From Bdellovibrionales bacterium GWB1_55_8 (GTDB lineage Bacteria > Bdellovibrionota > UBA1018), in the NCBI GenBank assembly GCA_001769835.1, contig MEPR01000035.1, forward strand, positions 24,683 to 88,682: DNA of 64,000 nt, read 5' to 3'. The stretch's first letter is position 1. Each line of letters starts with the position of its first letter. The notes under the pieces were generated by a model. That model saw only the letters and a list, made by a program, of their open reading frames with translations, did no database searches and was not told the DNA's origin. This document shows positions 791 to 24,114 of the stretch, piece by piece. The position numbers and the translations under genes were made by a program.

Positions 791-1808
791 ACTCGTCCAG
801 CGCCCCCATCTTTGAAACAAGATGGTGGGCAAGCGATTCGACGGCGGGCGCGCAGTATCGGACCTGCCCGGAAAAGCACCTCTTCGTCCTGAAGCTTCTC
901 ACGTCGCGCAGGAAAAGCGGATCCATGGTGTAGCGGTCCCACTCAGACCTGACTTCCTGAAAAAGACCGGGACCATATTCACGTCCCGTCGCCGAAATCG
1001 AGTAATAATGGGTAAACGACAAAGGAAGGTTCAACACCGGCCGCTCAGGAGTTTGCTGACCGAAAGACTTTCCGCCTTTGCTCAAGAACTGGTGGGTCAC
1101 GAAACTGTCCGAATAAAAAAACCGTCGCGGGTTGAATTCAAAAAACGCGCTAGCCCCGAGTTTACGATTCTGAACTTCCGGCCAGGGCACATAATCGACA
1201 TCGTCACCGAAGACATCCAACGCGGCACGGGTCATCTCAAAGTGAAGACGACTTCTCGCGTCCCGTTCCGTCGAATTCTTGCCAAAGACATGCGCAGCCA
1301 GAAAAGTGACATGATATCTCACCGTCTCGTCCGCAAAGAACCGCTTCACAGCATGAAGTCGTGCCGAAAACTGACTTAACGAACATTGCTTGTCATCTAT
1401 AACACTCACCACTAAATAGACGTCGTTCACTTGTTTCGCATCAAGCGGGCTCACCGAATGCACGCGGTAATACGCAACTGACGCGTCCCATGCCGCTGGA
1501 ACCGTCCACGCCAGGTCAGCATGAAGAAAAACATGGCAATCGCGATCCGGAGGGGCTGGATACCGAAGAAAGAAGTCCAGAAGTCCGAGAGCCCCGTCCC
1601 GAACCAGGAGCGGGCGGTAGGCGCTTAGAACGTCCGCACTTTTTATCTGGTGAAGGAAAACGGGCTTCAGGACCGAGAAATACTCTTCGGAATGAGGGTA
1701 AAGGAACTTTGCGGTATTCCTTCCGGAACGGCTGTTGGCGCTCCACTCTGACCTGATCGCGAATCGACTCAGCTCCCCGACGGAGCGGCTCAGGCTGATC
1801 AGCTCCAT
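774..1808 (-). CDS. hypothetical protein (344 aa from internal Met; the track ORF extends to 1904 but would overlap the upstream GT gene by 74 nt)
   Basis: Long minus-strand ORF in series with the GT4 gene. An ATG at 1808-1806 leaves a 22-nt spacer after the GT4 stop. No confident family assignment; a possible IDD motif hints at a GT-A-like fold, but only weakly. Confidence 0.4.
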   Translation of the reverse strand: MELISLSRSVGELSRFAIRSEWSANSRSGRNTAKFLYPHSEEYFSVLKPVFLHQIKSADVLSAYRPLLVRDGALGLLDFFLRYPAPPDRDCHVFLHADLAWTVPAAWDASVAYYRVHSVSPLDAKQVNDVYLVVSVIDDKQCSLSQFSARLHAVKRFFADETVRYHVTFLAAHVFGKNSTERDARSRLHFEMTRAALDVFGDDVDYVPWPEVQNRKLGASAFFEFNPRRFFYSDSFVTHQFLSKGGKSFGQQTPERPVLNLPLSFTHYYSISATGREYGPGLFQEVRSEWDRYTMDPLFLRDVRSFRTKRCFSGQVRYCAPAVESLAHHLVSKMGALDEFTPFL

Positions 1809-1830
1809 GATCTCACGGGTTCGATCCCGC

Positions 1831-3120
1831 TCAGAAATACGAGTCATACAATTCCCGATAAAGGTTGGAGTATCCTTCGGCCGCCCGGAACGGAGCTTTC
1901 GCATTCAAGCGATACGCACGCGCCAGCTGTTCAAATGCCTGGGTGAAACCTGAAAACGGTTCCCTTGAATCGCTCCCATTCCGCACCATATCGCCGATTT
2001 TTCGCCCCACTGATTCACACGAGCAAAACTCCCGCGCGCCCTCAGAAACGTTCCGCCGATCAGCATCCGTGCGATTCCGAGAAGCCATTGACGCCATTCC
2101 TTTGATGCAGGCTTTCAGCTCGGGTTGAATGCGGCGCCCCGATATCTGTACAGGGATGTGATCCACCGATCCCGGCCTCTGGCCACCGAAGGAGGAATAC
2201 CCCCCCCAATCTGACAGCAGCAACTGTTGTCCACAGCACCATGCCTCCGCGGGAGCCATTCCGAAGTCCTCGTCATTATGAGTGCTGAAGCTTACGAAGA
2301 CATCGGCCATCGCATAAAGATCCGCCAGACGCGCAGCCTCAAGATCTCCCAAATATTGAACGCGTTCACGATCCGGATCGGCCACCAATGTGTCGCGCAG
2401 CTCAATCAAATCAGCGGCGAGCAAACCGGTTAAAGGAGTCTTCCCGATATACGGGATTCCAAGATCGTCTATCGGCCCCGCGAGCCAGAGTCGTGCTTGA
2501 GGGTTGAATCGAAGATAGGCCGCAAAGGCCCTCATCAGAAGCAGCACGTTTTTTTGTAAACTCAGCCTGCCTGAGTAAAGCAAAATGGTTTCCGAAGTGG
2601 AAATGCCCTGCTCCTTCCGTAACCCTGAATAGGCGCCTTCCCGAAACGAAAACAAGGAGGAGTCCACCGGGAACGGAACCCAGGCAACCCGTCCAGAGAT
2701 GAACGACCGGAGCAGCTTTTGCTGCTTTTCTGATGCACCGACAAACACCGGCTGAGCGCTGCGAAACAACTCCTCCATCCGAAGCCACTCATTCGGATTG
2801 ATTGTGAAATCACCAAAAGCATGGATCACGAGTCTTGGCCAGGATTTCAGCTTTCTCGCAAGTAATTCGAACAGAACGGCCGGATGCGGCTTGTGGTCGA
2901 CAATTGCGATCAGGTCGGGCTTGAACGAGACAATGCCCTCCGCAAGCTGGTCCAAATCCAAGAAAGAAGCGGACTCTTCCATGTAAAACTGCCGGATCTC
3001 CGCTGAGGGGAACTCCAGTGAATAACTGTTGATCAGGTTTTGAGTGATGGATCGACAGCTCACCCAGTCCGAAGGGCGCTGCCGGCAAATGAGAGCGATT
3101 TTGCGCATAAACTTGTGCAA
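1831..3120 (-). CDS. glycosyltransferase, GT4 (GT-B fold, RfaG/WcaL-like)
   Basis: C-terminal GT1/GT4 signature: ILLYSGRLSLQKNVLLLMRAF ... DVFVSFSTHNDEDFGMAPAEAWCCG (E-x7-E motif). Confidence 0.7.
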   Translation of the reverse strand: MHKFMRKIALICRQRPSDWVSCRSITQNLINSYSLEFPSAEIRQFYMEESASFLDLDQLAEGIVSFKPDLIAIVDHKPHPAVLFELLARKLKSWPRLVIHAFGDFTINPNEWLRMEELFRSAQPVFVGASEKQQKLLRSFISGRVAWVPFPVDSSLFSFREGAYSGLRKEQGISTSETILLYSGRLSLQKNVLLLMRAFAAYLRFNPQARLWLAGPIDDLGIPYIGKTPLTGLLAADLIELRDTLVADPDRERVQYLGDLEAARLADLYAMADVFVSFSTHNDEDFGMAPAEAWCCGQQLLLSDWGGYSSFGGQRPGSVDHIPVQISGRRIQPELKACIKGMASMASRNRTDADRRNVSEGAREFCSCESVGRKIGDMVRNGSDSREPFSGFTQAFEQLARAYRLNAKAPFRAAEGYSNLYRELYDSYF

Positions 3121-3143
3121 TCGTAGTCTAATTGCAAATACTT

Positions 3144-3171
3144 TGGCAATGAAGTAACTTTCGCTTAAAAT
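3144..3171 (+). promoter_or_regulatory. sigma70-like promoter for the PqqD-led operon: TTGGCA-16 nt-TAAAAT
   Basis: TTGGCA at 3144-3149 and TAAAAT at 3166-3171, then GAGGG SD at 3172-3176 and ATG at 3181. Sits in the 60-bp gap between divergent GT4 and pqqD-like genes. Confidence 0.4.
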
Positions 3172-3180
3172 GAGGGCTCT

Positions 3181-3504
3181 ATGAGCGATACCACGCCTTT
3201 GAAAACCGGTTCCATTGAATCTGCCATTATTCCGGGAGCACGCCTGGAAATGAGCAAGGACCTCGTTGCGCGGAAAAACCAGGATGGAACCGTGATCGTC
3301 ATGAAGCTGGATGACAGCGCCGTTTTTTACAAGATTGACGGCATCGCCGCAGCGGTCTGGACCGAACTGGGGAACAAGCCGACCTTATCTGAGCTAGTAT
3401 CCAAATTCTCGGAACAGCATCCGAACCATCGCGATGAGATCGGTCGCGATGTGACAAACCTGATTACAGCGCTGCTCGGAAAACAGCTGATTGAAAAAAC
3501 CTGA
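3181..3504 (+). CDS. PqqD-family protein (RiPP recognition element-type peptide chaperone)
   Basis: 107 aa. VARKNQDGTVIVMKLDDSAVFYKIDGIAAAVWTELGNKPTLSELVSKFSEQ...EIGRDVTNLITALLGKQLIE is the canonical PqqD/RRE pattern (beta-strands then a wH-like helix, ending in a protein-binding helix). Confidence 0.7.
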   Translation: MSDTTPLKTGSIESAIIPGARLEMSKDLVARKNQDGTVIVMKLDDSAVFYKIDGIAAAVWTELGNKPTLSELVSKFSEQHPNHRDEIGRDVTNLITALLGKQLIEKT

Positions 3505-3519
3505 CGGAATGGTGAAATT

Positions 3520-3975
3520 ATGAGCGATACCGACAAGACCAAGAAAACAGAACAAAAAGACTACTACTTCGGCGGCATCAAGGAATTCAACCTTGAGCAG
3601 ATCGAGACGGAAGTACTGAACGAAAGCATTTACCTCGACGTTTTTGCCGGATCGGATCTCCGTCTGAAGAAAAATGTTTTGCCGATCGAGGACGCATTGT
3701 CGAAGGTCCTGCAAATCGAGGGAGTTCGCTTTGAATGGAACCCTGAAGCGCCCGGGGCGCCGAAAAACGGAACGCCGCAAGCAGGGCTGATCGCGCAGGA
3801 CGTGGCTGCAGTGATGCCGGAACTTGTCCGGGCCGACCGCGATACCGGAATGCTCGCGGTTGAGTACAGCAAGCTCGTCAGCTATCTTGTCGAGGCGGTC
3901 AAAGATCTGAACGCCATCGTACTCAAACAGGAAGCCCGGATCCGGGCACTGGAAAAGCCTGATTCGCGCCACTGA
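3520..3975 (+). CDS. small protein made of a 44-aa N-terminal peptide plus a C-terminal intramolecular chaperone auto-processing domain (Peptidase S74 / tail-fibre CIMCD-like)
   Basis: Residues 45-150 read SDLRLKKNVLPIEDALSKVLQIEGVRFEWNP...AGLIAQDVAAVMPELV...LAVEYSKLVSYLVEAVKDLNAIVLKQEARIRALE. This matches the S74/CIMCD consensus (SDxRLK...Y.W...GfIAQEv..v.PE.V.......l.V.Y..L..lliEAiKeL...i..L) and includes the Ser-x4-Lys catalytic dyad (S45/K50). The gene sits 15 nt after pqqD and 8 nt before an rSAM gene. Confidence 0.7.
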   Translation: MSDTDKTKKTEQKDYYFGGIKEFNLEQIETEVLNESIYLDVFAGSDLRLKKNVLPIEDALSKVLQIEGVRFEWNPEAPGAPKNGTPQAGLIAQDVAAVMPELVRADRDTGMLAVEYSKLVSYLVEAVKDLNAIVLKQEARIRALEKPDSRH

Positions 3976-3983
3976 CGCAACCC

Positions 3984-5072
3984 ATGGAGTCGCGATCTGC
4001 CGAGTCGACTAGAAAAAAACTACTGGTAAAGGGTTTATCCCCGAATTTCTGCCTGGTCCCGTTCACGACCTTGACCATTGAACCCGACGGCCACCTCGGC
4101 TGCTGCAGGCAGAAAGGGTCTCAGTTTTCGATAGGCAATCTTCATACGCAATCGCTGGCGGAAGCATGGAATGGCGATCCACTGAGAAGGTGGAGACGCG
4201 AGTTCCTAGAAGGCTCCCCGCAGACGTGCCGTAGCGAGATACGCCACTCCTCCTGCAATCTGTGTCCTGATTACAACTCGCTCCTTGACGCGATCGATCC
4301 ACGGGAAATTCAGCCCGGACCACCGCTCCGGCTCGGACTCAATCTCAATGGCAAGTGCAACCTGCGCTGCCGAATGTGTGTAGTCTGGAAGCAACCCAAC
4401 GGCATCTTCGATCGGCTTGACCTTCAGAGTTCCCTGGAGCCCCACATAAAGACGCTTCGCGAAGTCGAACTTCACTCAGGCGAGCCCTTTATCCAAAAGG
4501 ATACCTATCGTCTGATCAGCTGGATCAGCGATCATAATCCCGAATGCCTCTGGACGATCACCACCAACGCCCACTGGCGGCTTTCTGGGAGAATCGAAGA
4601 ACATCTGGATAAGATCCGATTCAAGAACCTGATCATAAGCATCGACAGCCTGGATGCGGCCACTTACGCAAAAATACGACAAGGCGGACGCCTCGGAACG
4701 GTCATGAAGAACGTCAACCTCCTGCGGGACTACAACTCCAGGAGAGTCGCCCGCGGCCAAGGCACAATGAACATCAGGGCAAACTTCCTTATTCAACAGG
4801 ATAACTGGTCTGAGCTGCCGCAGATCTTCGACTTTGAGAGGAAAACAGGAATCGATTGCTTCCGCACGTTTCTTTACGAACCGAGGAGGTTTTCGCTCCT
4901 CGACCTTCCCTCATCCGAACGGGAGGCGATTCTTACGTTCTATGAAACGGCGCTATCGCCTCAGCAAATTCGAGGCTCATTTCGAATATTGCTGCCCCTG
5001 ATCGACAGTCTTCCCAGAATCGATCAAGTGCTTCACTGGGAAAGGATGCAGCAGTCACTCAAGGGGAATTGA
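3984..5072 (+). CDS. radical SAM protein with N-terminal SPASM/twitch-like Cys-rich domain (paralog 1)
   Basis: N-terminus NFCLVPFTTLTIEPDGHLGCC...SLAEAWNGDPLRRWRREFLEG...C...CNLC is SPASM-like. The core motif CNLRCRMC (CxxxCxxC) follows at about residue 125. Shares the SGEPFIQKDTYRLI block with paralog 2. Confidence 0.75.
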   Translation: MESRSAESTRKKLLVKGLSPNFCLVPFTTLTIEPDGHLGCCRQKGSQFSIGNLHTQSLAEAWNGDPLRRWRREFLEGSPQTCRSEIRHSSCNLCPDYNSLLDAIDPREIQPGPPLRLGLNLNGKCNLRCRMCVVWKQPNGIFDRLDLQSSLEPHIKTLREVELHSGEPFIQKDTYRLISWISDHNPECLWTITTNAHWRLSGRIEEHLDKIRFKNLIISIDSLDAATYAKIRQGGRLGTVMKNVNLLRDYNSRRVARGQGTMNIRANFLIQQDNWSELPQIFDFERKTGIDCFRTFLYEPRRFSLLDLPSSEREAILTFYETALSPQQIRGSFRILLPLIDSLPRIDQVLHWERMQQSLKGN

Positions 5073-5835
5073 ACAGCTCGTACGCGAGCAATGCCTTCGG
5101 AACCGCCCCGTCGAATACAATGCGATTCTGATGTAAAACGATCGCCCGATTGCAGTGTTGAAGAATCAGCTCTCTCGAGTGACTGACAAAAATAAGCGCT
5201 TTCGATGCATGAATCACCTGCTGCATGCGCGCCATCATTTTTGCCTGAAAGAATTGATCGGCGTTGTCGTACGCCTCATCGAGAATCAGGAGATCACCGC
5301 TCCTCGCGGTCAAGACGGCCAGACAGAGCCGGCTCTTCATTCCCTGGCTGTAAGTTTCGTAAGGAGCATCCAAGAACGCACCGAGCTCGGAAAAAGCGAT
5401 CGCCTCCTCAACAACCTGCTGAACGCCAGCGCCGATCTCGTTCGGGTAGAGGAGCCGAACCAGCAGCTCCGCATTTTCCCGCCCTGTAAGTTCCGGAACA
5501 ATGCCAGCGGTGGTATTGAATATCGCGCGACAGACCCCGTTCACCTGAATGCTCCCGGTATTCGGGCGATACATGCCTGCGATACAGCGGCACAACGTGG
5601 TTTTTCCGCTTCCGTTCACCCCCAGAATTCCCAGGCGGTCTCCTGATCGGATCTGAAGATTGATGTCATTCAGGACGTGAAGCATTCTTCGCGGCTTCAA
5701 GAGTAATCGCACTGGATCGCTCACCGCGTCCACGAAGAGCTGCCGAAGGGATCCGTTGGCATAATGCCGGAGCCGAAAAGCCAGATTTACGCCCGAAAGA
5801 GTCGCTATATTGTCAGAGCTGGTGATAGAATTCAT
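5059..5835 (-). CDS. ABC transporter ATP-binding protein (Wzt/TagH/KpsT-like, ABC-2 type exporter ATPase)
   Basis: Walker A GVNGSGKTTL, signature YSQGMKSRL, Walker B LLILDEA. Overall resemblance to polysaccharide/teichoic-acid exporter ATPases. Overlaps the permease gene by 23 nt. Confidence 0.8.
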   Translation of the reverse strand: MNSITSSDNIATLSGVNLAFRLRHYANGSLRQLFVDAVSDPVRLLLKPRRMLHVLNDINLQIRSGDRLGILGVNGSGKTTLCRCIAGMYRPNTGSIQVNGVCRAIFNTTAGIVPELTGRENAELLVRLLYPNEIGAGVQQVVEEAIAFSELGAFLDAPYETYSQGMKSRLCLAVLTARSGDLLILDEAYDNADQFFQAKMMARMQQVIHASKALIFVSHSRELILQHCNRAIVLHQNRIVFDGAVPKALLAYELFNSP

Positions 5836-6565
5836 TTTTCATTCGCTTCCAATACGTGACAGCGGCCACCCCAAAGAGCGCGGCGCAGACAGTCGCCTTT
5901 GCCAACGATCCGATGAAACCTTCCGAGCTGAAGCTGTAGATGCAGATTCTCACCGGCTCGATGAGAACATAGATCGGGTTAATGCCAATCAACCACTGAT
6001 ACTGATCAGGGACAAATTCCTTCGGGTAAAAGATCGGAGTCACGAAGAAAAGAACGCCGATCATGAAATGCACCACATACCGAACATCCCTGTAAAAAAC
6101 GTTCAACATGGATAAAAACCAGAGCAAACCTCCTGTTCCAGCAAGAAGAGGCAACAAGGCGAGCGGAAGGAACCAGAGCCCCGTTTTTTGCACATCCGTG
6201 ATCAGAACAGTCGGGACCAGAATGATCGAGAAGGCGGCCACAAAATTGACGGCATTATCCAGCAAGGACGAGAAAACAAGCAGATAGGGCTTCACCTTCA
6301 ACGCGAGAAACACCTCGCGTGCCCCGACGGGAACCGCGATCCCCATTTCGAGCGAGGAAACAACGAATACCCAGGGCAGCAAACCACCCAACAGAAACAG
6401 TCCGTAATTCGGGATTCCGATTCGCAGTATTTCCTTGAAGGCCAGTGCTTGAGCTGCGTAGAGCACGATGGGACTGAGAATCACCCATACAAAGCCCGCA
6501 AAGGTCCGCCGATAGCGGGCCCGCATCTGCGCTTTGGTCATGAAAACAAGCAGGCTCCAGTTCAT
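5813..6565 (-). CDS. ABC-2 type transporter permease (Wzm/TagG/KpsM-like)
   Basis: 250 aa, six predicted TM segments, typical ABC-2 N-terminus (KAQMRARYRRTFAGFVWVILSP). Confidence 0.75.
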   Translation of the reverse strand: MNWSLLVFMTKAQMRARYRRTFAGFVWVILSPIVLYAAQALAFKEILRIGIPNYGLFLLGGLLPWVFVVSSLEMGIAVPVGAREVFLALKVKPYLLVFSSLLDNAVNFVAAFSIILVPTVLITDVQKTGLWFLPLALLPLLAGTGGLLWFLSMLNVFYRDVRYVVHFMIGVLFFVTPIFYPKEFVPDQYQWLIGINPIYVLIEPVRICIYSFSSEGFIGSLAKATVCAALFGVAAVTYWKRMKNEFYHQL

Positions 6566-6590
6566 TTATCGAGCTCCTCCAATGAGCTTC

Positions 6591-7382
6591 TCAGGAAACC
6601 ACCAGTATGTAATCGCATTCACTGCAAACGGAATGAGCGGCCCTCTTGCCTTCTCTCAGCCGGTTACGAAAGTCGATGTACTTCTGCGATGCCCAGATAT
6701 CTCCAAAGTGCTGTTCCTGGACATTACCCATGACATTCCGCTGAAGGAAATCCTGAAAACAGGGAAGGACGTTCCCCTTGACCGTAATCACTGACGTGGA
6801 AATCGGAACAAAACACGGTCTGTCAAGCGGTGGCGTCACCTTGAAAGAACCGAAGCCCTGAACAAGCCCCCCCCTGTTCGTGAAAATCAGGTCTTGATGG
6901 GAGTAATAGATGATCTTGCCTTTATCGGATTCCGACAAGCGCGCATAAGCATCCTCAAATTCCGCCAAGTCCGAACCTATATGCCGCGTGACGGTGAACT
7001 TATGAACGCCGAGGTCCAGGAGTTCCCGGAGCTTCTCCTGGTTCAACAGAGTTCCATTCGTGAAAATCTCGATCCTGCTTCGCGGAAGAATATCACGCGT
7101 GAGCGCCACAAATCGGGACAGGGAAGGCGACAACAACGGTTCATTGAAGAAATGATACGAGATGCGGCCTTCGTAATTCAGGTCGGAAAGCTGCTTCAGG
7201 ATTCCAAGAAAGAGCGTGTCTTCCATCGCGCCGCGCTCCGGCCTCTCGAAACTGGAATTCGGGCAATAAGGGCACCTCCTATTGCAGTCACTTCCAATCT
7301 CGATCTCGACCGCGAGTGGCGGCTTGAGTCCTTTAGGGTTCATCTTCCTCGCATTATCCGACATTTTCCGTGATTTCGCCAT
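6591..7382 (-). CDS. radical SAM protein with C-terminal twitch/SPASM-like domain (conventional order)
   Basis: EIEIGSDCNRRCPYCPNS (CxxxCxxC) near the N-terminus. C-terminal Cys pattern RPC...LPC...GNVQEQHFGDIWASQKY...CSEC. The start is taken at ATG 7382 (ATG 7364 also possible); the track's extension to 7604 has no support and would run into the divergent gene. Confidence 0.7.
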   Translation of the reverse strand: MAKSRKMSDNARKMNPKGLKPPLAVEIEIGSDCNRRCPYCPNSSFERPERGAMEDTLFLGILKQLSDLNYEGRISYHFFNEPLLSPSLSRFVALTRDILPRSRIEIFTNGTLLNQEKLRELLDLGVHKFTVTRHIGSDLAEFEDAYARLSESDKGKIIYYSHQDLIFTNRGGLVQGFGSFKVTPPLDRPCFVPISTSVITVKGNVLPCFQDFLQRNVMGNVQEQHFGDIWASQKYIDFRNRLREGKRAAHSVCSECDYILVVS

Positions 7383-7453
7383 GGACTGCTCACAAATGGC
7401 ACCTTTACTGAATCGGACTGGACGGGCACCCGGCACACCCATAGAATCTCTGC

Positions 7454-8551
7454 GTGAAACCTCAGCTGACCCCGGGAGAAATCCTCGAAATCTACAGGAA
7501 GAAGGGACTTCCGGAAAACTTCTGCCCGGTGCCTTTTTCCACTCTGCTTTTTGAGGCGAACGGGAATGTCTGCATGTGCCGCAGAAAGGGTTCGGAGTTC
7601 GCAATCGGCAACATCCAGGAGCAGGACTACCTTGAAATCTGGAACGGGGAAAAGCTGAAGAACATACGCGCCGAGTTTTTGACCGGCAGGCTTCGCACCT
7701 GCGCCGTTGAAGTCGAGCGCGACCATTGTAATCTCGATGCCAACAATGCCGACTCCCTTCCTTTCATCGAACTGGCGGTCGAGCAGCAGAGGCATCCTCT
7801 CCGCATAAGTCCCAACTTCAACGGACACTGCAATGTTCAGTGTGAGATGTGTCACATCTGGCGCTATCCGGACGGCTTGTATGACAAAATCGGTTTCTGG
7901 CGAACACTCGAGAACGACATCCTGCCGCACTTGCGCGAAATCGACACATTCTCAGGAGAGCCGTTCATCCAGAAAGACACCTACCGCCTCATCGAAATGG
8001 CCGCGCACGCGAATCCAAACATTTTCTGGAGCTTCACCACAAACGCGAACTGGCGCCTGAATGACACTATTCGGCGCTATCTCGACATGATCCAGGTGAA
8101 AACATTCAACTTGAGCATTGATAGCGTCGATCCGGCCGTCTATGCCTCGATTCGCCGCGGAGGAAACCTGGACAAGGTCCTCATCAACTTCGACCTGCTC
8201 CAGCTTTACGAACAGGAAAGAATCGCGGCTGGAAAGAGCGCACTCGGACTTACCATCCATTCGGTTATTCAGCGATCGAACTGGAAAGGCATTCCGGCGC
8301 TCCTCACACTGAGAAAGCAGAGGAATGCGCGAATTCATCTGAAATGCCTTTTTGAGCCTCCGGAACTCTCGCTCATCGGGATGACGGCGGCGGAAAAGCG
8401 GCAAATTCTGGCATACCTGCTTGAATCGCTTGGCCGCGAGGAACTGATGATGACTGCTGCGCTCTGGAAAGTGCTGTTGAAGGATATTCCCAAATCAGAC
8501 AGGCTGGAATTAATTCTGGAGTTTCAGAAGAAGACGGGAATCTTTCGCTGA
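7454..8551 (+). CDS. radical SAM protein with N-terminal SPASM/twitch-like domain (paralog 2)
   Basis: GTG start. NFCPVPFSTLLFEANGNVCMC...IGNIQEQDYLEIWNGEKLKNIRAEFLTG...C...C, then CNVQCEMC (CxxxCxxC). The SGEPFIQKDTYRLI block is identical to paralog 1. Confidence 0.75.
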   Translation: MKPQLTPGEILEIYRKKGLPENFCPVPFSTLLFEANGNVCMCRRKGSEFAIGNIQEQDYLEIWNGEKLKNIRAEFLTGRLRTCAVEVERDHCNLDANNADSLPFIELAVEQQRHPLRISPNFNGHCNVQCEMCHIWRYPDGLYDKIGFWRTLENDILPHLREIDTFSGEPFIQKDTYRLIEMAAHANPNIFWSFTTNANWRLNDTIRRYLDMIQVKTFNLSIDSVDPAVYASIRRGGNLDKVLINFDLLQLYEQERIAAGKSALGLTIHSVIQRSNWKGIPALLTLRKQRNARIHLKCLFEPPELSLIGMTAAEKRQILAYLLESLGREELMMTAALWKVLLKDIPKSDRLELILEFQKKTGIFR

Positions 8552-8592
8552 TTGCAGATGTGCTCGCGTCGGCATTCTGATATTTTTTCCAC

Positions 8593-9957
8593 ATGCCACG
8601 ACAATTCCTCGAGCGCCGCACCCTCGCAATCGTGTCGGCCCTGGGTCTGCTCAGCGCTCTCTCACTCAGCCTGACTCTGCGCCCTCAGCCTGGCGGCGTG
8701 GGATCTTGCCACGAAATTCGTGCCGCGCGATATTTTGACAGCACAACCAAAAAGGTCCGCAGCCCTGCTAAAATTCTTGTCGAAGGCGGAAAAATTCAAC
8801 GCCACATCAGTACGCCACGATCTGAGCCTTGCAAAGTGATCGACCTACCGGACGCAACGCTATTGCCCGGCCTGATTGACACCCACACGCACTTATTCAT
8901 GCGCGATTCAGCCTATTACCGCGGTTTTTCAACGGAGCTTCTTTCCGTGGTCAAACACAGTGACGCCGAACGGTTGGCTTGGGGGAAGGAGAGCGCCCAA
9001 CAGCTTTTGTTTGCGGGAATCACGACGGTTCGCGATCTGGGTAATTCGGGATTATTCCTGGACGCGCAGTTCGAAAAATTCCTGAACAGCAATGGCGGGT
9101 TCGCGAGCCCCAGGATCATCTATTCGGGACCCGGTATCAGCGGAAGTGGCGGTCAGTTTCCGGAAAACACCCCCTTGGCCATCGTCCAGAAGGAGTACTT
9201 TCCCCTCCTGGAACCTGGCTTGGCCGCCGGAATAGTCGCCCGCTTAAACGAGAACGGCGCCACCTGGGTGAAAGTATTCGCTGACGGTGATCCAAATCCG
9301 GAAAAGATGGAACAAATCGTTCTCGAGTCAATTGTGCGCGAGGCGCGGAGGCTCGGAAAAAAAATCGCTGCGCACAGTACGGAAGACGCAACGGCCTTGC
9401 ATGCCGTTGCCGCGGGAGTCGACAGCATCGAGCATGGGTTTGGAATTTCGACCTCCACCCTGTCTCAAATGGCGAAAAAGGGTATTTTTCTGGTACCAAC
9501 CGATTTCAGTCGCAGGGTTTGTGACATCATTCGCATGAAAAATCCGGATCCTCAATACCAGGACCCCGGGCGGTACCTCCAAGAACGCGGAATACGCCTC
9601 AAGGAGGCGGTTCGACTGGGTGTTCCGGTTGCGTTCGGTTCCGATGCCTACTCTGATATGAGCGCCGAAGGCCTGAACATGGGCCAGGCAGCGAAAGAGG
9701 GCCTTTACGCTTACTGGGAAGAGGGCATGAATGCCCCGGACGTGCTTCACGCCGCAACATTGGGTTCCGCCGAACTTCTCGGGATGGCGGATCAACTCGG
9801 GACGCTGGAGGCCGGCTCGAGCGCGGACATCATCGCGATCAAAGGAGATCCATTGGAGGATCTCCGAAACCTTGATCAGGTGATCTTTGTCATGAAAGAA
9901 GGCACCGTGTTCACAAGTCCGGAAACAGTTTCAAGCGTGGCAAGCCATGGCCAATAA
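8593..9957 (+). CDS. amidohydrolase-family metal-dependent hydrolase, predicted secreted
   Basis: Hydrophobic N-terminus LAIVSALGLLSALSLS. Metal-binding start GLIDTHTHL, later HSTEDAT...AAGVDSIEHG and VAFGSDAYS motifs typical of the amidohydrolase TIM-barrel superfamily. The stop overlaps the next start (ATGGCCAATAA). Confidence 0.7.
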   Translation: MPRQFLERRTLAIVSALGLLSALSLSLTLRPQPGGVGSCHEIRAARYFDSTTKKVRSPAKILVEGGKIQRHISTPRSEPCKVIDLPDATLLPGLIDTHTHLFMRDSAYYRGFSTELLSVVKHSDAERLAWGKESAQQLLFAGITTVRDLGNSGLFLDAQFEKFLNSNGGFASPRIIYSGPGISGSGGQFPENTPLAIVQKEYFPLLEPGLAAGIVARLNENGATWVKVFADGDPNPEKMEQIVLESIVREARRLGKKIAAHSTEDATALHAVAAGVDSIEHGFGISTSTLSQMAKKGIFLVPTDFSRRVCDIIRMKNPDPQYQDPGRYLQERGIRLKEAVRLGVPVAFGSDAYSDMSAEGLNMGQAAKEGLYAYWEEGMNAPDVLHAATLGSAELLGMADQLGTLEAGSSADIIAIKGDPLEDLRNLDQVIFVMKEGTVFTSPETVSSVASHGQ

Positions 9958-11275
9958 CGACCGCCAGGACAATGTCACCCGGAAGCTCAGCCAGGTCTCT
10001 CCGTGCTTTTGCCTGGCCAAGTGGCTTCAGGTCACCATCGATATCGTCCATGGGACGACTCACAGCTGTCATCACCCTGCGCGCCACCCCATCCCGCTTC
10101 AGGAGCTCCAATCGAACTTGCATGCCCTTCACAATACGAACTTCAAAAAGCAGCAGCGAAAAGCCATGCTCGAGGGGCATCGCCCTGCCGAGTGCGTTTA
10201 TTGCTGGGACATTGAAGACGCAGGTTCTGCCTATTCCGATCGGATCGTGAAATCCTCCGACCCCTGGGCTCTGCCTTTTCTTGATGAAATAAAATCTCTT
10301 CCCTGGGATGCGGATGTCCTCCCAACCTACCTCGAAGTGATGCTCGACGATCGCTGCAATCTCTCATGCGCCTACTGCATGGCCGACATCAGCAGTTCCA
10401 TTGCCGCCGAGATGGCGAAATTCGGTCCTTACCCAGTCAGCGACAAGGGGCATCGGATGCCCACCCATCCCGTGCCGGACGACCCCAATCCCTACGTCGC
10501 CGCGTTTTGGAAATGGATCCCTGCGGTTTTACCGAATTTGAAAGTACTGAGGGTCACAGGGGGTGAGCCGCTTTTAAGCGGACGCCTTCAGGAATTGCTG
10601 ACGATCCTGCGTCAGGACAAGCACCCGGATCTCACGTTGATCATCAACTCCCATCTGAGCGTGGGTTCTCAAGCCCTCGAGTTATTTTTCGATCAGGTTG
10701 AAGACCTGTTGGAAACCCAAGCGATCGGCCACTTTGAACTCTACACCAGCCTGGATGCCGCTGGCCCCCCCGCTGAATACATTCGCTGCGGAATGGAGTA
10801 CCGAAAGGTCATGAACACCATTGCGACGGCAGCCAGACGTTTTCCAGAAGCAAAAGTGGTTGCCATGTGCGCCTTCAATCTGCTCTCTCTTTCCTCATTC
10901 GGATTGCTCCTTGCGGAAATATGCGCGCTGAAGCGGGAGCTACCGAACGTCTTTCTGGATACGGCATACCTGCGGAACCCACGGTACCTCTCCTCCAATC
11001 TGGCGACTGCCGGTCTGAAACGATCCGCGGCTGAAGCGATGGCCGGGTTCATCGGGAGCCCCCGGTCGTATACGAACCATGAGATCGCGAAAATCGAGAA
11101 CTCGCTGCGGTGGATGCAAAGCGAGCCCGGATCGACGGAGCTTGCGCGCGGAAGGCGGGATTTCCTGCTGTTCGTCTCCGAGTACGACCGCCGAAAGAAC
11201 AAGTCGTTCTTAGGTGTATTTCCGGAATACAGGGAGTTTTACCGGGAGTGCAAAAGGTCAGTTCTCACGACCTAA
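9947..11275 (+). CDS. radical SAM protein with N-terminal twitch/SPASM-like domain (paralog 3, 442 aa)
   Basis: N-terminal Cys cluster SPCFCLAKW...HSCHH...ECVYCWDIE. Core motif DDRCNLSCAYC (CxxxCxxC). Translationally coupled to the amidohydrolase gene. Confidence 0.75.
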   Translation: MANNDRQDNVTRKLSQVSPCFCLAKWLQVTIDIVHGTTHSCHHPARHPIPLQELQSNLHALHNTNFKKQQRKAMLEGHRPAECVYCWDIEDAGSAYSDRIVKSSDPWALPFLDEIKSLPWDADVLPTYLEVMLDDRCNLSCAYCMADISSSIAAEMAKFGPYPVSDKGHRMPTHPVPDDPNPYVAAFWKWIPAVLPNLKVLRVTGGEPLLSGRLQELLTILRQDKHPDLTLIINSHLSVGSQALELFFDQVEDLLETQAIGHFELYTSLDAAGPPAEYIRCGMEYRKVMNTIATAARRFPEAKVVAMCAFNLLSLSSFGLLLAEICALKRELPNVFLDTAYLRNPRYLSSNLATAGLKRSAAEAMAGFIGSPRSYTNHEIAKIENSLRWMQSEPGSTELARGRRDFLLFVSEYDRRKNKSFLGVFPEYREFYRECKRSVLTT

Positions 11276-11392
11276 TTTGGACAATGGGCAACTCAGGTTG
11301 ACAGTACTACGAGCTAATCAGTTGAGGCTTGATGGTCGCCTTGTGTAAGATGAGGGAACCGATTACAATTAAAGAAAAGAAACGACTATTTT

Positions 11393-12205
11393 ATGAAAAA
11401 GAAACTACCTGGACTTGTCAATAATGCGGGTTTTTCGCTCGTTGAAGTCATGGTCGCCGCCGGGGTTTTGGGCGTCGTGACGATGGGATCGATGCAGTTG
11501 ATGAACACCATGAGCGATGGTCAAAGACGAATGTGGCAGATGCTGAATCTCACTGACGCCATTGCCGAAGTCCAGAACGCTGTGCGCAATCAAGAGACCT
11601 GCCTAGCGACTCTGAACCCCGCTGGTCCTCCGATACTCATCTCTACAACTGGTGGAGCCAGCAACTTCACAGTCCTGCGAAGGGCGGACGGCACGGCTTT
11701 AGTCACGGCGCCTACCGAATACGGAACGGGCGCAGGGCGAATTCGCGTGGACGTTTTCCAACTTACGAGCACCGGTCCAAACAACGTCGGACAAGCAAAA
11801 ACCGCCTCTGTCGTACTCCGCTATAGAAAGCGAGAGGGCGCGGTTTGGGGCGCGCAGTTAGTGAGAGACATCCCAATTAAGGTGATTCCGACTGCCGCCA
11901 ATCGAGTATCGCGTTGCTACTTATCGGATATGTCGGGGCCGGCATGCGACGCTTTGGGCGGCGACTTCGATGAACTCACCGGCCGCTGCACCACCATCGA
12001 CCTCTCCTTGCAGGCAGGCGCAGACCTGAGACTTCCGGCCGACGGCGAGATTTGCCGAGGAGGCGTCTGCCAGACTGTCTTCAATTCAAATCAGACCTGC
12101 CCATGGGGCTCCATGAACGCAAGATGTGTTAACGTCGTGGGCATTTCCCCAGGAGGTACCCTCATGTGTGGAGCCGCGCCGGCAGGAACAGCGTGCACCC
12201 CCTGA
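11393..12205 (+). CDS. type IV pilin-like protein (prepilin-type N-terminal cleavage/methylation domain) with a Cys-rich C-terminal region
   Basis: MKKKLPGLVNNAG|FSLVEVMVAAGVLGVV is the class-III signal with G-1/F+1/E+5. The mature protein is about 257 aa. The last 95 aa contain 11 Cys together with many Asp/Glu/Gly. Confidence 0.7.
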   Translation: MKKKLPGLVNNAGFSLVEVMVAAGVLGVVTMGSMQLMNTMSDGQRRMWQMLNLTDAIAEVQNAVRNQETCLATLNPAGPPILISTTGGASNFTVLRRADGTALVTAPTEYGTGAGRIRVDVFQLTSTGPNNVGQAKTASVVLRYRKREGAVWGAQLVRDIPIKVIPTAANRVSRCYLSDMSGPACDALGGDFDELTGRCTTIDLSLQAGADLRLPADGEICRGGVCQTVFNSNQTCPWGSMNARCVNVVGISPGGTLMCGAAPAGTACTP

Positions 12206-13605
12206 TACGCCGCGGTTTGCCTCGCGGTCGACCGAGCTGGAACGTTTTTGTTTTGATTTTTCTGTCAGTGATCGGAGCACTCGTTTACGGGCAGTCGCTC
12301 GGCTTCGGGTTCTTCATCTTTGATGATGCGGTTCACATCACACTGAATCCGCGATTTCGACCGGTTTCGCCCGGTAACCTGTGGTGGATCTGGACACATT
12401 CACTGATGTCGGTGACGTATACCTTCTGGGCTTTCCTTGCGTCCCTCTTCGGGACGGCAAATCCTGTCCCTTACCGGGTCGCGAATCTCGGATTGCATAT
12501 CCTGAACTCTTATCTGGTCTTCAACTGGATCAGAACTGTCCTGGAGCAGCTTCATAAAACAGGTGAACAGAAGAAACTGACCCTGGCTGCCTTTCTAGCT
12601 GGTTTCATTTTCCTCGCTCATCCTGTTCACGTTGAAAACGTAGCCTGGATTTCATCGACCAAGGATCTCCTCAGCTTCTTTTTTGGGATGATTTCGTTTC
12701 ATTTTTATTTTCGCTCCAGAAAAGTCATTGGCGATACGTTCGAGTTAAAAAACGTTTTCTGGACTTACGTGTTTTTCCTGGCTGCAGTCCTTTCCAAACC
12801 AGCTGCCGCGATTCTGCCGCTCCTCTATATCTGGCTTGACCGGGTTCTTTTCGCGCGCCAGGTACAGAAGTCCATGCTCGAGTACTCCATCGCGGCAATC
12901 GCTTCCGCATTTGCCGTGCATGCCTATCTCCGCGTCGTTCCCATGAGTAATCTCGGATTCGTTCCAGATTTGGGCTGGCGCGCCCTGCTTTCACTGGACG
13001 CTCTCGGATTTTACCTCGCGAAGCTTTTGCTTCCATTCGAATACTACTTTGATTACGGTCGCACTCCGCTTGAAGTGATTCGTCAGTTCGCGCTGAACCC
13101 AGCGGCCCAGGCGCTGACAGTCATTGCGAGCTCGCTCGTGGTCGCCGGCTTCGTGTTGTCTTATTTTCGAAAAAATCTGCAAGGCGTCCATGTCGCACTG
13201 GGCGTGATCATTCTCGGACTGCTGCCTTACCTGGGGCTGATCCCCTTCGCCTTTCAAAATCTGTCCTCGGTCGCCGATCGTTATCTCTATTTTCCCTCGC
13301 TTGGGCTCTCACTGGCAGCATCGCTGGCCTATTTGCATGCGAGTCGCCCACGCGCCGCTCTGGTGATCGCAGGAACATTCGGGATTTTCCTGAGCATCCA
13401 AACAGTCCTGCAAACCTCTACCTGGAAATCCTCCATCAGCGTTCTGTCGCATTCTGTAGCGAGGAACCCATCCAGCCCCCATTCACGCAAAGCGCTTGCA
13501 CATGCATTGTTCGCAAGGGGACTTGTGGAGGAAGCCATGAACGAGATGAAGGTCTTGGAACTGTTGAAGGCTGAACGACTGAACGAGTCTTCGAATTCCG
13601 AATAA
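12166..13605 (+). CDS. GT-C-fold membrane glycosyltransferase-like protein (TMTC/PMT/DUF1736-like) with C-terminal TPR-like tail
   Basis: About 10 TM segments. The conserved first-loop motif FIFDDAVHI follows TM1, as in TMTC/PMT-type O-mannosyltransferases. The soluble C-terminus ARNPSSPHSRKALAHALFARGLVEEAMNEMKVLE is TPR-like. The track start at 12166 (GTG) overlaps the pilin gene by 40 nt, so the true start may lie downstream. Confidence 0.5.
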   Translation: MWSRAGRNSVHPLIRRGLPRGRPSWNVFVLIFLSVIGALVYGQSLGFGFFIFDDAVHITLNPRFRPVSPGNLWWIWTHSLMSVTYTFWAFLASLFGTANPVPYRVANLGLHILNSYLVFNWIRTVLEQLHKTGEQKKLTLAAFLAGFIFLAHPVHVENVAWISSTKDLLSFFFGMISFHFYFRSRKVIGDTFELKNVFWTYVFFLAAVLSKPAAAILPLLYIWLDRVLFARQVQKSMLEYSIAAIASAFAVHAYLRVVPMSNLGFVPDLGWRALLSLDALGFYLAKLLLPFEYYFDYGRTPLEVIRQFALNPAAQALTVIASSLVVAGFVLSYFRKNLQGVHVALGVIILGLLPYLGLIPFAFQNLSSVADRYLYFPSLGLSLAASLAYLHASRPRAALVIAGTFGIFLSIQTVLQTSTWKSSISVLSHSVARNPSSPHSRKALAHALFARGLVEEAMNEMKVLELLKAERLNESSNSE

Positions 13606-13650
13606 ACGAGTGGCCCAACCTCTCGGCTGAGCCACCTGAACTACTGCAAG

Positions 13651-24027: not shown

Positions 24028-24114
24028 CGCAAGTCTCCATACTAAGTGAAGGGGTGGGACATCACGGAGCAGGACGCTTCCGTGCACCTCGCGCTAGCCG
24101 CGTCAGGAGGACGG

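What the first reader, a model, noticed from the sequence alone, without database searches (positions are those of the whole stretch)
11393..13605. Unusually Cys-rich type IV pilin-like protein directly downstream of rSAM paralog 3 and overlapped by a GT-C glycosyltransferase
The prepilin signal (NAG|FSLVEV) is canonical, but typical pilins carry only a single disulfide pair. This mature protein ends with about 95 residues containing 11 Cys, interspersed with Asp/Glu/Gly (CDALGGDFDELTGRC ... CRGGVCQTVFNSNQTCPWGSMNARCVNV ... CGAAPAGTACTP). Cys and acidic residues are the substrates of sactionine/ranthipeptide- and QhpD-type rSAM crosslinking. The next gene, which may overlap by 40 nt, is a PMT/TMTC-like GT-C enzyme with a TPR tail, of the kind that O-glycosylates proteins in the periplasm. 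The pilin-like protein may therefore be a second, or the real, substrate of this cluster: a crosslinked and/or glycosylated pilin.
Basis: inference. Interest (0 to 1): 0.65.

Follow-up and report, generated by a model that had tools for sequence, protein, structure and literature searches.

The report
Disulfide-rich pilin paired with a glycosyltransferase
A rare pilin-like surface protein of predatory-type bacteria (Bdellovibrionota), held together by five probable disulfide bonds, is always encoded beside a membrane sugar-transferase that most likely glycosylates it; the neighbouring radical-SAM enzymes are consistently nearby but probably do not crosslink its cysteines.

Summary
The ORF at 11393-12205 is a real type IV prepilin (leader ...NAG|FSLVE, Glu+5). 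It has 10 Cys, not 11, and 9 of them lie in the last 96 residues. It belongs to a rare, unnamed family: about 16 clusters among 1.84 billion proteins, plus longer forms of 650-870 aa.

All 22 members examined have an even number of Cys (6-16). Eight positions are conserved, and every gain or loss is a pair. This points to disulfides and leaves no free Cys for thioether crosslinks.

The downstream ORF has a GT-C fold and the TMTC/ArnT catalytic motifs (DD, Lys, DRYLY). Its TPR tail is vestigial. The pilin and GT-C genes are adjacent or near each other in every lineage with enough flanking DNA. The closest known arrangement is pilA-tfpW of Pseudomonas.

Both genes sit in a conserved island with N-twitch rSAMs, PqqD, a small self-cleaving Peptidase_S74 protein, an S24/S26-like peptidase, an ABC-2 exporter and a GT4. 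The small S74 protein has a strongly conserved N-terminal peptide and is the better candidate rSAM substrate.

Verdict: a disulfide-knotted modular pilin that is most likely O-glycosylated by its partner GT-C. rSAM crosslinking of its Cys is unlikely.

The parts
11276..11392 (+). Intergenic region upstream of the pilin gene, probably holding its own promoter
   Evidence: It is about 90% identical to L002 although the loci are only 77% identical overall. The last 32 nt before the ATG are identical and include TACAAT, with TTGTGT 17 nt upstream. The consensus scanner did not call a sigma-70 site, so the promoter is inferred.
11393..11431 (+). Prepilin leader peptide MKKKLPGLVNNAG (13 aa), predicted to be cleaved after Gly13
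   Evidence: Pfam N_methyl and TIGR02532 are above cut-off. The G|F(S/T)L(V/I)E motif is conserved across the family.
11432..11920 (+). Pilin module: N-terminal alpha-1 helix (residues 16-74) plus an antiparallel beta-sheet (residues 89-176). The first conserved Cys is C70, which is mature position 57.
   Evidence: AF2 pLDDT is about 90 over residues 41-180. The family profile matches PilA, PilE1 and geopilin chains in the PDB out to residues 108-130. The first Cys sits at mature position 57 in 21 of 21 members.
11915..12202 (+). C-terminal Cys-rich module (C175 to P270, 9 Cys). It consists of a C175/C185-x13-C199 loop (RCY..D...C.ALGG.FD..TGRC), a short variable linker and a terminal C-x4-C-x9-C...VGIS.GG..MCG motif. 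The window clade also has the extra pair C245/C268.
   Evidence: Alignments A2 and A3; Cys table. No Pfam, NCBIfam or PDB match. AF2 confidence is low here, pLDDT 43-73.
12166..13605 (+). GT-C glycosyltransferase gene. It encodes 479 aa from GTG 12166, or 470 aa from GTG 12193 as annotated by NCBI.
   Evidence: The protein is 100% identical to a hypothetical protein of Bdellovibrionales bacterium GWB1_55_8. The AF2 model has pLDDT 89.5 and pTM 0.90 and is all-helical. The ten best Foldseek PDB hits are all GT-C enzymes: AglB, STT3, AftB, Pmt4 and EmbA/B.
12322..12327 (+). DD motif (D53 D54, in FIFDD) in the first periplasmic loop after TM1. This is the predicted catalytic or acceptor-binding site.
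   Evidence: It is invariant in 23 homologues. It corresponds to TMTC motif M1 (D52/D53 of TMTC1) and to D55/E56 of ArnT (PMC7801869).
12796..12798 (+). Invariant Lys211 (in LSKP). It is the candidate phosphate-binding Lys, equivalent to TMTC motif M4.
   Evidence: Invariant in alignments A4 and A5. The motif definition comes from PMC7801869. The correspondence is inferred from order and position.
13276..13290 (+). DRYLY motif (D371-Y375), matching the (E/D)RxxY motif M7 of TMTCs. The Arg binds the lipid-phosphate.
   Evidence: D371, R372, Y373 and Y375 are invariant or nearly so.
13432..13602 (+). Short C-terminal periplasmic tail (residues 423-479, three helices), a vestigial TPR-like remnant
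   Evidence: AF2 helices at 423-433, 438-450 and 454-478. The tail aligns with the first TPR of homologues of 550-800 aa, which carry many Pfam TPR hits. No TPR model matches this protein.
13609..13636 (.). 12-bp GC-rich hairpin between the GT-C stop and the convergent PG-binding gene. It probably acts as a terminator closing the pilin-GT-C unit.
9947..11275 (+). N-twitch radical SAM paralogue 3 (context)
   Evidence: NF033640 at 255.6 bits, cut-off 170. Orthologues are directly upstream of the pilin in L002 and L008/9, and elsewhere in the island in L003, L004, L012, L013, L014 and L016.
221..9957 (.). Rest of the conserved island (context):
- S24/S26-like peptidase, 221-790
- orf376, 774-1904 (-)
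- GT4, 1831-3120 (-)
- PqqD-like, 3181-3504
- small Peptidase_S74 protein, 3520-3975
- rSAM1, 3984-5072
- ABC ATPase, 5059-5835 (-)
- ABC-2 permease, 5813-6565 (-)
- rSAM/SPASM, 6591-7604 (-)
- rSAM2, 7454-8551
- signal-peptide amidohydrolase, 8593-9957
   Evidence: Pfam and NCBIfam. The same gene set recurs in L014, L072, L094, L095, L097, L098, L100 and L102-L106.

Best explanation
The pair 11393-13605 is a two-gene unit. It encodes a modular, disulfide-knotted type IV pilin and the GT-C glycosyltransferase that modifies it.

Proposed course of events:
1. The prepilin is inserted into the inner membrane by its class III signal. The short Lys-rich leader stays in the cytoplasm and the rest of the protein is in the periplasm.
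2. A prepilin peptidase, encoded elsewhere, cuts after Gly13.
3. The periplasmic part folds as an ordinary pilin head followed by a small Cys-rich cap. The cap is locked by oxidative folding: four conserved disulfides plus a fifth pair, C245-C268, specific to this clade.
4. The translationally coupled GT-C enzyme has its DD motif in the first periplasmic loop. It takes a sugar from a polyprenyl-phosphate carrier and transfers it to Ser/Thr of the pilin. The likeliest site is the Pro/Thr/Ser-rich loop just after the first conserved Cys (ILISTTGG in the window protein).
5. The surrounding island probably supplies or tailors the donor (GT4, ABC-2 exporter, possibly the rSAMs), or it makes a separate peptide product from the small S74 protein.

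What is shown: prepilin signal, pilin-like fold, even and pairwise-varying Cys, GT-C fold and motifs, conserved gene pairing.
What is inferred: the disulfide bonds themselves, transfer to the pilin, the acceptor site, the donor, and assembly into a pilus.
For: Pilin identity:
- N_methyl and TIGR02532 are above cut-off.
- The family profile hits PilA, PilE and geopilin chains (E=1e-5 to 6e-3) beyond the N-terminal helix.
- AF2 gives helix 16-74 plus a beta-sheet at pLDDT about 90.

Disulfides:
- 22 of 22 members have even Cys counts (6, 8, 10, 12, 14 or 16).
- 8 Cys positions are conserved.
- About 11 independent departures from eight Cys are all pairs.

GT-C:
- The AF2 model has pTM 0.90.
- The top 10 Foldseek hits are all GT-C enzymes at probability 0.93-1.00.
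- D53/D54, K211 and DRYLY are invariant and match TMTC motifs M1, M4 and M7.
- The positively charged N-terminus before TM1 places the DD loop in the periplasm.

Pairing:
- The genes overlap by 13-40 nt here, are 4 nt apart in L003 and 9 nt apart in L005.
- They are adjacent or within 4 kb in all lineages with enough flank.
- The association is reciprocal. The eight GT-C loci outside the window clade that are closest to the window enzyme (L003, L004, L005, L012, L013, L014, L016, L036) all have such a pilin. About 65 more distant TPR-bearing GT-C loci do not have one.
- An ArnC/GtrB-sized GT2 (323-356 aa), the size class of polyprenyl-phosphate sugar synthases, sits between or beside pilin and GT-C in L003, L004, L012, L016 and L036.

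Precedent: tfpW, a GT-C with a DDx motif, lies immediately downstream of pilA and glycosylates it (bioRxiv 10.1101/2020.04.19.049825).
Against: - No glycan, mass or thiol data exist. The organism is known only as a MAG.
- The window has no GT2 orthologue and no type IV pilus machinery genes.
- The Ser/Thr/Pro enrichment of the proposed acceptor loop is modest, 0.30 against 0.22 overall.
- Foldseek found no significant PDB match for the pilin model.
- The Cys-rich module is modelled with low confidence, so no disulfide geometry could be checked.
- The GT-C domain has no Pfam or PDB sequence match even as a profile.
- The Foldseek E-values for the GT-C model are only 8e-3 to 8e-2, with TM 0.3-0.5.
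- The GT-C enzyme could act on a different acceptor.
- The constant presence of rSAM genes remains unexplained.
Confidence: 0.55

Rival explanations
1. First reader's model. One or more of the N-twitch rSAM enzymes forms thioether (sactionine, ranthionine or QhpD-like Cys-to-Asp/Glu) crosslinks in the Cys-rich tail of the pilin before export.
For: - rSAM3 orthologues are directly upstream of the pilin in the window, L002 and L008/9, and within the locus in L003, L004, L012, L013, L014 and L016.
- In L016 a PqqD-like gene and rSAM3 diverge from the pilin gene.
- In L008/L014 the pilin lies between rSAM3 and another rSAM-related 667-aa protein.
- Precedents exist for cytoplasmic rSAM modification of proteins that are exported later, namely anSME and QhpD (established knowledge).
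Against: - Cys counts are even in 22 of 22 members, with strictly pairwise gain and loss. This leaves no unpaired Cys.
- Asp and Glu near the Cys are not conserved: D186, D191 and E194 vary, while G189 and G190 are the invariant residues.
- A class III signal anchor puts the module in the periplasm.
- L005/L006 has pilin and GT-C but no rSAM in 16.5 kb.
- rSAM3 scores far below cut-off for every peptide-maturase model, for example WgkB at 16.8 bits against 650, and it does not hit QhpD.
- 63 of 80 rSAM3 homologue loci lack any such pilin.
Confidence: 0.05
2. The rSAM enzymes, PqqD, the S24/S26-like peptidase and the ABC exporter mature the small Peptidase_S74 protein (3520-3975) into a peptide product. 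The pilin and GT-C form a linked but chemically separate module whose GT-C acceptor is not the pilin. In that case the pilin would be only an adhesin or a presenting scaffold.
For: - The S74 protein sits between PqqD and rSAM1.
- Its N-terminal about 30 aa, Y.FGGIKEFNLEQIE.EVLNES(I/V)YLDVFAG, is almost invariant in 12 loci. It ends exactly at the S74 self-cleavage motif G|SD(L/V)R(L/F)K.
- The core set S74 + PqqD + rSAMs + ABC + GT4 + orf376 recurs in loci where no pilin or GT-C was detected (L095, L102), although those contigs are short.
Against: - GT-C is translationally coupled or adjacent to the pilin, not to the S74 gene, in at least four lineages.
- The S74 protein has no signal peptide.
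- One family member (P0137) fuses a pilin module to a C-terminal S74 domain, which argues that the two parts are physically related rather than separate.
Confidence: 0.2
3. The adjacency of pilin, GT-C and rSAM genes is coincidental: an ordinary minor pilin has landed in a polysaccharide locus.
For: No pilus machinery genes are present in 64 kb. Distant TPR-bearing GT-C homologues mostly lack pilin neighbours.
Against: The pairing is kept across proteins only 26-49% identical, in more than 12 lineages and despite rearrangements. It holds whether loci are found through the pilin, through the GT-C or through rSAM3.
Confidence: 0.03

Closest known systems
Pseudomonas aeruginosa/paraeruginosa group IV pilA-tfpW(-tfpX) (Pa5196, PA7)
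   Same: - The pilin gene is immediately followed by a polytopic GT-C glycosyltransferase.
- That enzyme carries a DD(x) motif needed for pilin glycosylation.
- It acts in the periplasm with a polyprenyl-phosphate-linked donor.
   Different: - TfpW is 646 aa with a large periplasmic TPR domain. The enzyme here is 470-479 aa with only a vestigial repeat.
- The Pseudomonas pilin is about 150 aa with one disulfide. This one is 257 aa when mature, with five probable disulfides and a separate C-terminal module.
- No rSAM/PqqD/S74 island surrounds tfpW.
TMTC1-4 / PMT / ArnT branch of GT-C enzymes (GT-C/PMT clan)
   Same: Shared fold. DD in the first external loop at almost the same residue number (53/54 here, 52/53 in TMTC1). 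A conserved Lys and an (E/D)RxxY motif. Homologues of the window enzyme carry long TPR arrays, as TMTCs do, and JGI names some of them protein O-mannosyltransferase.
   Different: No Pfam PMT, PMT_2 or DUF1736 hit and no sequence-level PDB hit. The TPR domain is nearly lost. The acceptor is proposed to be a pilin rather than cadherins or alpha-dystroglycan. The donor sugar is unknown.
Modular type IV pilins (Streptococcus sanguinis PilB/PilC; PMC8179133)
   Same: A pilin module carries an extra C-terminal functional module. Family members range from 254 to about 870 aa because of an insert between the pilin head and the terminal Cys motif.
   Different: The grafted module here is a small Cys-knot, with or without a fibre-like repeat region. 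It is not a vWA or lectin domain. There is no evidence yet for a role in adhesion.
QhpC/QhpD and sacti-/ranthipeptide systems
   Same: A Cys-rich polypeptide is encoded next to rSAM enzymes that have auxiliary-cluster (SPASM/twitch) domains.
   Different: Cys parity indicates disulfides. The twitch domain is N-terminal. No maturase model is matched. The substrate would be a 257-aa membrane-anchored periplasmic protein.

Membership tests
Type IV pilin (class III signal peptide protein) | Short basic leader ending in Gly, cleavage before Phe/Met, Glu at +5, followed by about 20 hydrophobic residues | tested here: met
   MKKKLPGLVNNAG|FSLVEVMVAAGVLGVV. Pfam N_methyl 24.3 bits (cut-off 21.2) and TIGR02532 18.9 bits (cut-off 16.3).
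Type IV pilin (class III signal peptide protein) | Long N-terminal alpha-helix packed on an antiparallel beta-sheet | tested here: inconclusive
Type IV pilin (class III signal peptide protein) | Processed by a prepilin peptidase and polymerised by a type IV filament machinery | not testable with these tools
   No PilB/C/D/M-Q genes are present in the 64-kb window. The rest of the genome was not examined.
GT-C glycosyltransferase (PMT/TMTC/ArnT-like) | Polytopic membrane protein with the GT-C fold | tested here: met
   AF2 pLDDT 89.5, pTM 0.90, about 11-12 long helices. Foldseek ranks 1-10 are AglB, STT3, AftB, Pmt4 and EmbA/B, with probability 0.93-1.00, E 8e-3 to 8e-2 and TM up to 0.49.
GT-C glycosyltransferase (PMT/TMTC/ArnT-like) | Acidic DD/DE/DxD motif in the first extracytoplasmic loop, plus a conserved Lys and an (E/D)RxxY arginine for the lipid-phosphate | tested here: met
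   D53, D54, K211 and D371-R372-Y373-L374-Y375 are invariant or nearly so in 23 homologues. The motif definitions come from PMC7801869.
GT-C glycosyltransferase (PMT/TMTC/ArnT-like) | Match to a curated family model (Pfam PMT, PMT_2, DUF1736) | tested here: not met
   No Pfam or NCBIfam hit for the membrane domain, singly or for five members. No PDB sequence hit with a profile. A few distant homologues carry PF13231.
GT-C glycosyltransferase (PMT/TMTC/ArnT-like) | C-terminal TPR domain (TMTC, TfpW) | tested here: not met
   Only about 55 residues follow the last TM helix and no TPR model matches them. The four closest homologues (469-471 aa) also lack TPR hits, whereas most homologues of about 490-810 aa carry many.
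TfpW-type pilin glycosyltransferase | Gene immediately downstream of the pilin it modifies | tested here: met
   Overlap of 13-40 nt in the window; gaps of 4 nt (L003) and 9 nt (L005).
TfpW-type pilin glycosylation | Sequence homology to TfpW; glycosylation of the pilin shown | not tested
rSAM-crosslinked Cys peptides/proteins (sactipeptide, ranthipeptide, QhpC) | Cys residues act singly as thioether donors to non-Cys acceptors in a conserved register | tested here: not met
   Cys counts are even in 22 of 22 members, gains and losses are pairwise, and nearby acidic residues are not conserved.
rSAM-crosslinked Cys peptides/proteins (sactipeptide, ranthipeptide, QhpC) | Neighbouring rSAM belongs to a known peptide-maturase family | tested here: not met
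   rSAM3 passes only NF033640 (N_Twi_rSAM). All maturase models score 15-35 bits against cut-offs of 250-650.

The most novel reading that the evidence does not exclude
The whole island is one pathway that builds a new kind of decorated pilus subunit. The N-twitch rSAM enzymes would tailor either the lipid-linked glycan or the peptide released from the self-cleaving S74 protein. The TPR-less GT-C, or another island enzyme, would then attach that product to a disulfide-knotted modular pilin used by predatory Bdellovibrionota for surface or prey recognition. A stronger version, in which an rSAM directly modifies the pilin polypeptide at non-Cys residues, is not excluded either.
Probability: 0.15. 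Interest if true: 0.8.

Novelty: new variant of a known kind. Interest (0 to 1): 0.5.

Why it matters
- Pilin glycosylation by an adjacent GT-C is known from only a few Pseudomonas strains. Here the same logic appears in a different phylum, with a TMTC-like enzyme that has lost its TPR domain. Its partner is an unnamed pilin family carrying 3 to 8 probable disulfides and a length-variable insert.
- If the prediction holds, this gives a compact bacterial model of enzyme plus dedicated acceptor for the TMTC/PMT branch of protein O-glycosyltransferases.
- It also identifies a candidate surface adhesin family in predatory bacteria, whose type IV pili are needed for prey invasion.
- The consistent embedding in an island of uncharacterised N-twitch rSAM enzymes gives that large, unstudied rSAM family its first defined genomic context and two concrete candidate substrates.

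Tried and rejected
- The word-indexed protein search found only the query itself and one homologue. Repeating it with the family alignment was swamped by ordinary pilins. The exhaustive HMMER search and neighbourhood look-ups were what revealed the family.
- Pattern scans of metagenome contigs with the pilin alignment failed. One alignment had no usable conserved stretch and the other gave no confirmed hit.
- A GT-C profile that included TPR-bearing homologues only retrieved TPR proteins from the PDB. The trimmed profile found nothing.
- Two of the 18 'family' hits (P0136, P0138) are HAMP-repeat proteins and were discarded as false positives.
- I first read the Ser/Thr-rich inserts of some members (P0124, P0130, P0131) as O-glycosylation linkers. 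Their GN(A/I)T periodicity, and the S74 fusion in P0137, fit fibre-like repeats at least as well, so I do not use them as evidence.
- A literature search for the N-twitch rSAM family found nothing.
- No sigma-70 consensus promoter was called upstream of the pilin gene.
Full report
**What is at the coordinates.**
The window matches a MAG, Bdellovibrionales bacterium GWB1_55_8. The GT-C ORF is 100% identical to one of its proteins, and an ENA contig is 99.94% identical over 13.9 kb.

ORF 11393-12205 encodes 270 aa. It begins MKKKLPGLVNNAG|FSLVEVMVAAG, a canonical prepilin signal that passes Pfam N_methyl and TIGR02532.

The protein has 10 Cys, not 11, and nine of them lie between C175 and the C-terminus. 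This is 3.7% Cys against 1.02% in 40 other ORFs of the window (P=5.5e-4). For the tail alone, 9 in 96, P=7e-7.

The next ORF can start at GTG 12166 (40-nt overlap, AGGAGG 9 nt upstream) or at GTG 12193 (13-nt overlap, the NCBI annotation).

**A rare family with a fixed Cys framework.**
- The word-indexed search found only the protein itself and one 68%-identical homologue. That homologue sits on a 1.4-kb contig with the same order of rSAM3, pilin and GT-C.
- An exhaustive HMMER search of 1.84 billion cluster representatives, using residues 36-270, gave 18 hits. Two are HAMP-repeat false positives, which leaves 16.
- Neighbourhood surveys added long forms of 650-870 aa.
- All members have the G|F(S/T)L(V/A)E start, and the first Cys is at mature position 57 in 21 of 21.
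- All share the motif RCY..D...C.ALGG.F(D/N)..(T/S)G.C, then a variable insert of 0 to about 600 residues, then a terminal C-x4-5-C-x-T-x6-9-C...(V/I)G(I/L)..G...C motif.

Eight Cys positions are conserved. The window clade has an extra pair, C245 and C268, always together. P0139 has lost C185 and C199 together. P0125, P0127, P0132 and the long forms add 2, 4 or more Cys. All 22 mature proteins have an even count, from 6 to 16. With about 11 independent departures from eight, all of them even, chance is about 5e-4. This is what disulfide-bonded periplasmic domains look like, and it leaves no unpaired Cys.

**Structure of the pilin.**
AF2 with the 14-member alignment gives a helix at 16-74 and a beta-sheet at 89-176 with pLDDT about 90. 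The Cys-rich region is modelled at only 43-73. The family profile aligns to PilA, PilE1 and geopilin chains, in some cases out to residue 108-130. Foldseek against the PDB found nothing significant, and the other fold libraries were unavailable. The Cys-rich module has no Pfam, NCBIfam or PDB relative.

**The downstream enzyme.**
The 479-aa ORF has no Pfam, NCBIfam or PDB sequence match, even as a profile. Its homologues are the widespread bacterial 'TPR repeat protein / protein O-mannosyltransferase' group, which has a membrane domain plus TPR arrays.

Its AF2 model is confident (pLDDT 89.5, pTM 0.90). The ten best Foldseek matches in the PDB are all GT-C enzymes: AglB, STT3, AftB, Pmt4 and EmbA/B. 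Probabilities are 0.93-1.00, although E is only 8e-3 to 8e-2 and TM at most 0.49.

D53 and D54 (FIFDD) follow TM1 directly. K211 and D371-R372-Y373-L374-Y375 are invariant or nearly so. They correspond to TMTC motifs M1 (DD, residues 52/53 in TMTC1), M4 (Lys) and M7 (ERxxY) as defined in PMC7801869.

The Arg-rich N-terminus before TM1 places the DD loop in the periplasm, where the pilin's globular part also lies. The 'TPR tail' is three helices that align with the first repeat of longer homologues. The closest relatives (469-471 aa) lack TPR hits as well.

**Conserved pairing of pilin and GT-C.**

| Locus | Position of the GT-C relative to the pilin |
|---|---|
| Window | overlaps by 13-40 nt |
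| L003 | 4 nt downstream |
| L005/L006 | 9 nt downstream |
| L004 | 1.2 kb away |
| L012 | 2 kb away |
| L008/9 | 3 kb away |

A scan of one genome per GTDB species with the GT-C alignment returned 77 loci. Pilin-family genes lie beside the GT-C in L013 (Oligoflexia), L014 (Bdellovibrionales GWA1_52_35), L016 (Bacteriovoracaceae) and L036 (Bdellovibrio sp. ZAP7). Long forms lie beside it in L051 (Bacteriovorax sp. DB6_IX), L067 and L072 (Halobacteriovorax).

About 65 loci with more distant, TPR-bearing GT-C genes have no such pilin. The association therefore holds in both directions.

An ArnC/GtrB-sized GT2 sits beside the pair in L003, L004, L012, L016 and L036, but not in the window.

The closest known arrangement is pilA-tfpW of Pseudomonas. 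There a GT-C with a DDx motif and a TPR domain lies immediately downstream of pilA and glycosylates it.

**The rSAM question.**
rSAM3 passes only the uncharacterised model NF033640, and no literature on that family was found.

A metagenome scan with rSAM3 then gave 80 loci.
- The 17 closest share an island made of orf376, GT4, PqqD, a small Peptidase_S74 protein, several N-twitch rSAMs, an S24/S26-like peptidase and an ABC-2/ABC pair.
- Pilin, GT-C or both were detected in 11 of these 17: L092, L093, L094, L096, L097, L098, L099, L100, L103, L104 and L106.
- The other 63 loci, mostly tandem rSAM paralogue arrays, have neither pilin nor GT-C.
- L005/L006 has pilin and GT-C but no rSAM in 16.5 kb.

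The small S74 protein (3520-3975) lies between PqqD and rSAM1. Its N-terminal about 30 residues, Y.FGGIKEFNLEQIE.EVLNESIYLDVFAG, are almost invariant in 12 loci. They end at the S74 self-cleavage motif G|SDLRLK. That makes it a better candidate for the PqqD-guided rSAM substrate than the pilin.

Taken with the Cys parity and the periplasmic location of the Cys module, thioether crosslinking of the pilin is unlikely (about 0.05). What the rSAMs do, and why the pilin travels with them, remains open. One family member (P0137) fuses a pilin module to a C-terminal S74 domain, which hints at a physical link between the two parts of the island.

**Operon structure.**
The 117-nt region upstream of the pilin is about 90% identical to L002, against 77% for the locus as a whole, and contains TTGTGT-17-TACAAT. 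A 12-bp hairpin follows the GT-C stop. No type IV pilus machinery genes occur in the 64 kb.

**Verdict.**
The finding is a real and unusual pilin. Its most likely biology is five disulfides plus O-glycosylation by the coupled GT-C. This is a new variant of the pilA-tfpW theme, set in a conserved and uncharacterised rSAM/PqqD/S74 island.

Confidence by claim:

| Claim | Confidence |
|---|---|
| Prepilin identity | about 0.9 |
| Disulfides | about 0.85 |
| GT-C fold | about 0.9 |
| The GT-C glycosylates this pilin | about 0.55 |

Noticed in passing
window 3520-3975 (+), with PqqD-like 3181-3504 and rSAM1 3984-5072: A 151-aa protein consists of a nearly invariant about 30-aa N-terminal peptide (Y.FGGIKEFNLEQIE.EVLNESIYLDVFAG) followed by a Peptidase_S74 self-cleaving chaperone domain that starts G|SDLRLK. 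It is conserved in 12 related loci. It looks like a precursor whose peptide is released by autoproteolysis, and it is the likeliest substrate of the PqqD/rSAM set.
   Followed up: partly
window 221-790 (+): This ORF has an S24/S26-type SDSM peptidase motif (weak Pfam Peptidase_S26 hit). It has homologues in 10 related loci, and in L012 and L094 the homologue is directly upstream of the pilin. It is a further conserved island component of unknown role.
   Followed up: partly
P0137 (metagenomic protein, 502 aa): This relative of the pilin family has an N_methyl prepilin start, the first Cys motifs, a long repeat region and a C-terminal Peptidase_S74 domain. It is a pilin-anchored, tail-fibre-like architecture.
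   Followed up: partly
L092/L093, L098, L100, L103, L104, L106, L051, L067, L072: Long (650-870 aa) members of the pilin family carry several hundred residues of fibre-like GN(A/I)T-type repeats between the pilin head and the terminal Cys motif. They occur in marine and freshwater Bdellovibrionota, including Bacteriovorax sp. DB6_IX.
   Followed up: partly
window 8593-9957 (+): An amidohydrolase with an apparent signal peptide, so probably periplasmic, overlaps the start of rSAM3. Its orthologues are immediately next to the pilin gene in L010 and L011. Its role (glycan deacetylase or peptide trimming) is unknown.
   Followed up: no
L004 5544-6644, L012 10842-11927, L008 3573-4595, L014 6914-7984, L016 1632-2693: A conserved 340-366-aa protein with a P-loop (MGGGKTT) lies between pilin and GT-C in several loci but is absent from the window. 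It resembles HprK-related kinases by eye only and was not tested.
   Followed up: no
L107-L169 (metagenome loci): More distant rSAM3 homologues (36-44% identity) from marine and lake metagenomes occur as tandem arrays of two to four paralogues, without any of the island genes. The N-twitch rSAM family is therefore much broader than this system.
   Followed up: no
window 6591-7604 (-) and 7454-8551 (+): The mechanical ORFs of the rSAM/SPASM gene and rSAM2 overlap head to head by 151 nt. The minus-strand gene probably starts at an internal Met, which would leave a short divergent promoter region.
   Followed up: no
window 13651-14223 (-): A PG_binding_1 protein lies convergent to the GT-C and is conserved at the same position in L003. 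It weakly matches the PG-binding part of HxsA (48.6 bits against a cut-off of 121.65).
   Followed up: no
window 39992-45014 (-): A LuxC-like acyl-CoA reductase fused to an AMP-binding domain, a LuxE-like acyl-protein synthetase and a further AMP-binding enzyme form a cluster, next to a GNAT and an MFS transporter. It appears unrelated to the finding.
   Followed up: no
window 24046-25512 (+): The flagellar cap gene fliD lies about 12 kb downstream of the pilin, followed by a TPR protein and a GT9-like protein. No flagellin glycosylation link was examined.
   Followed up: no
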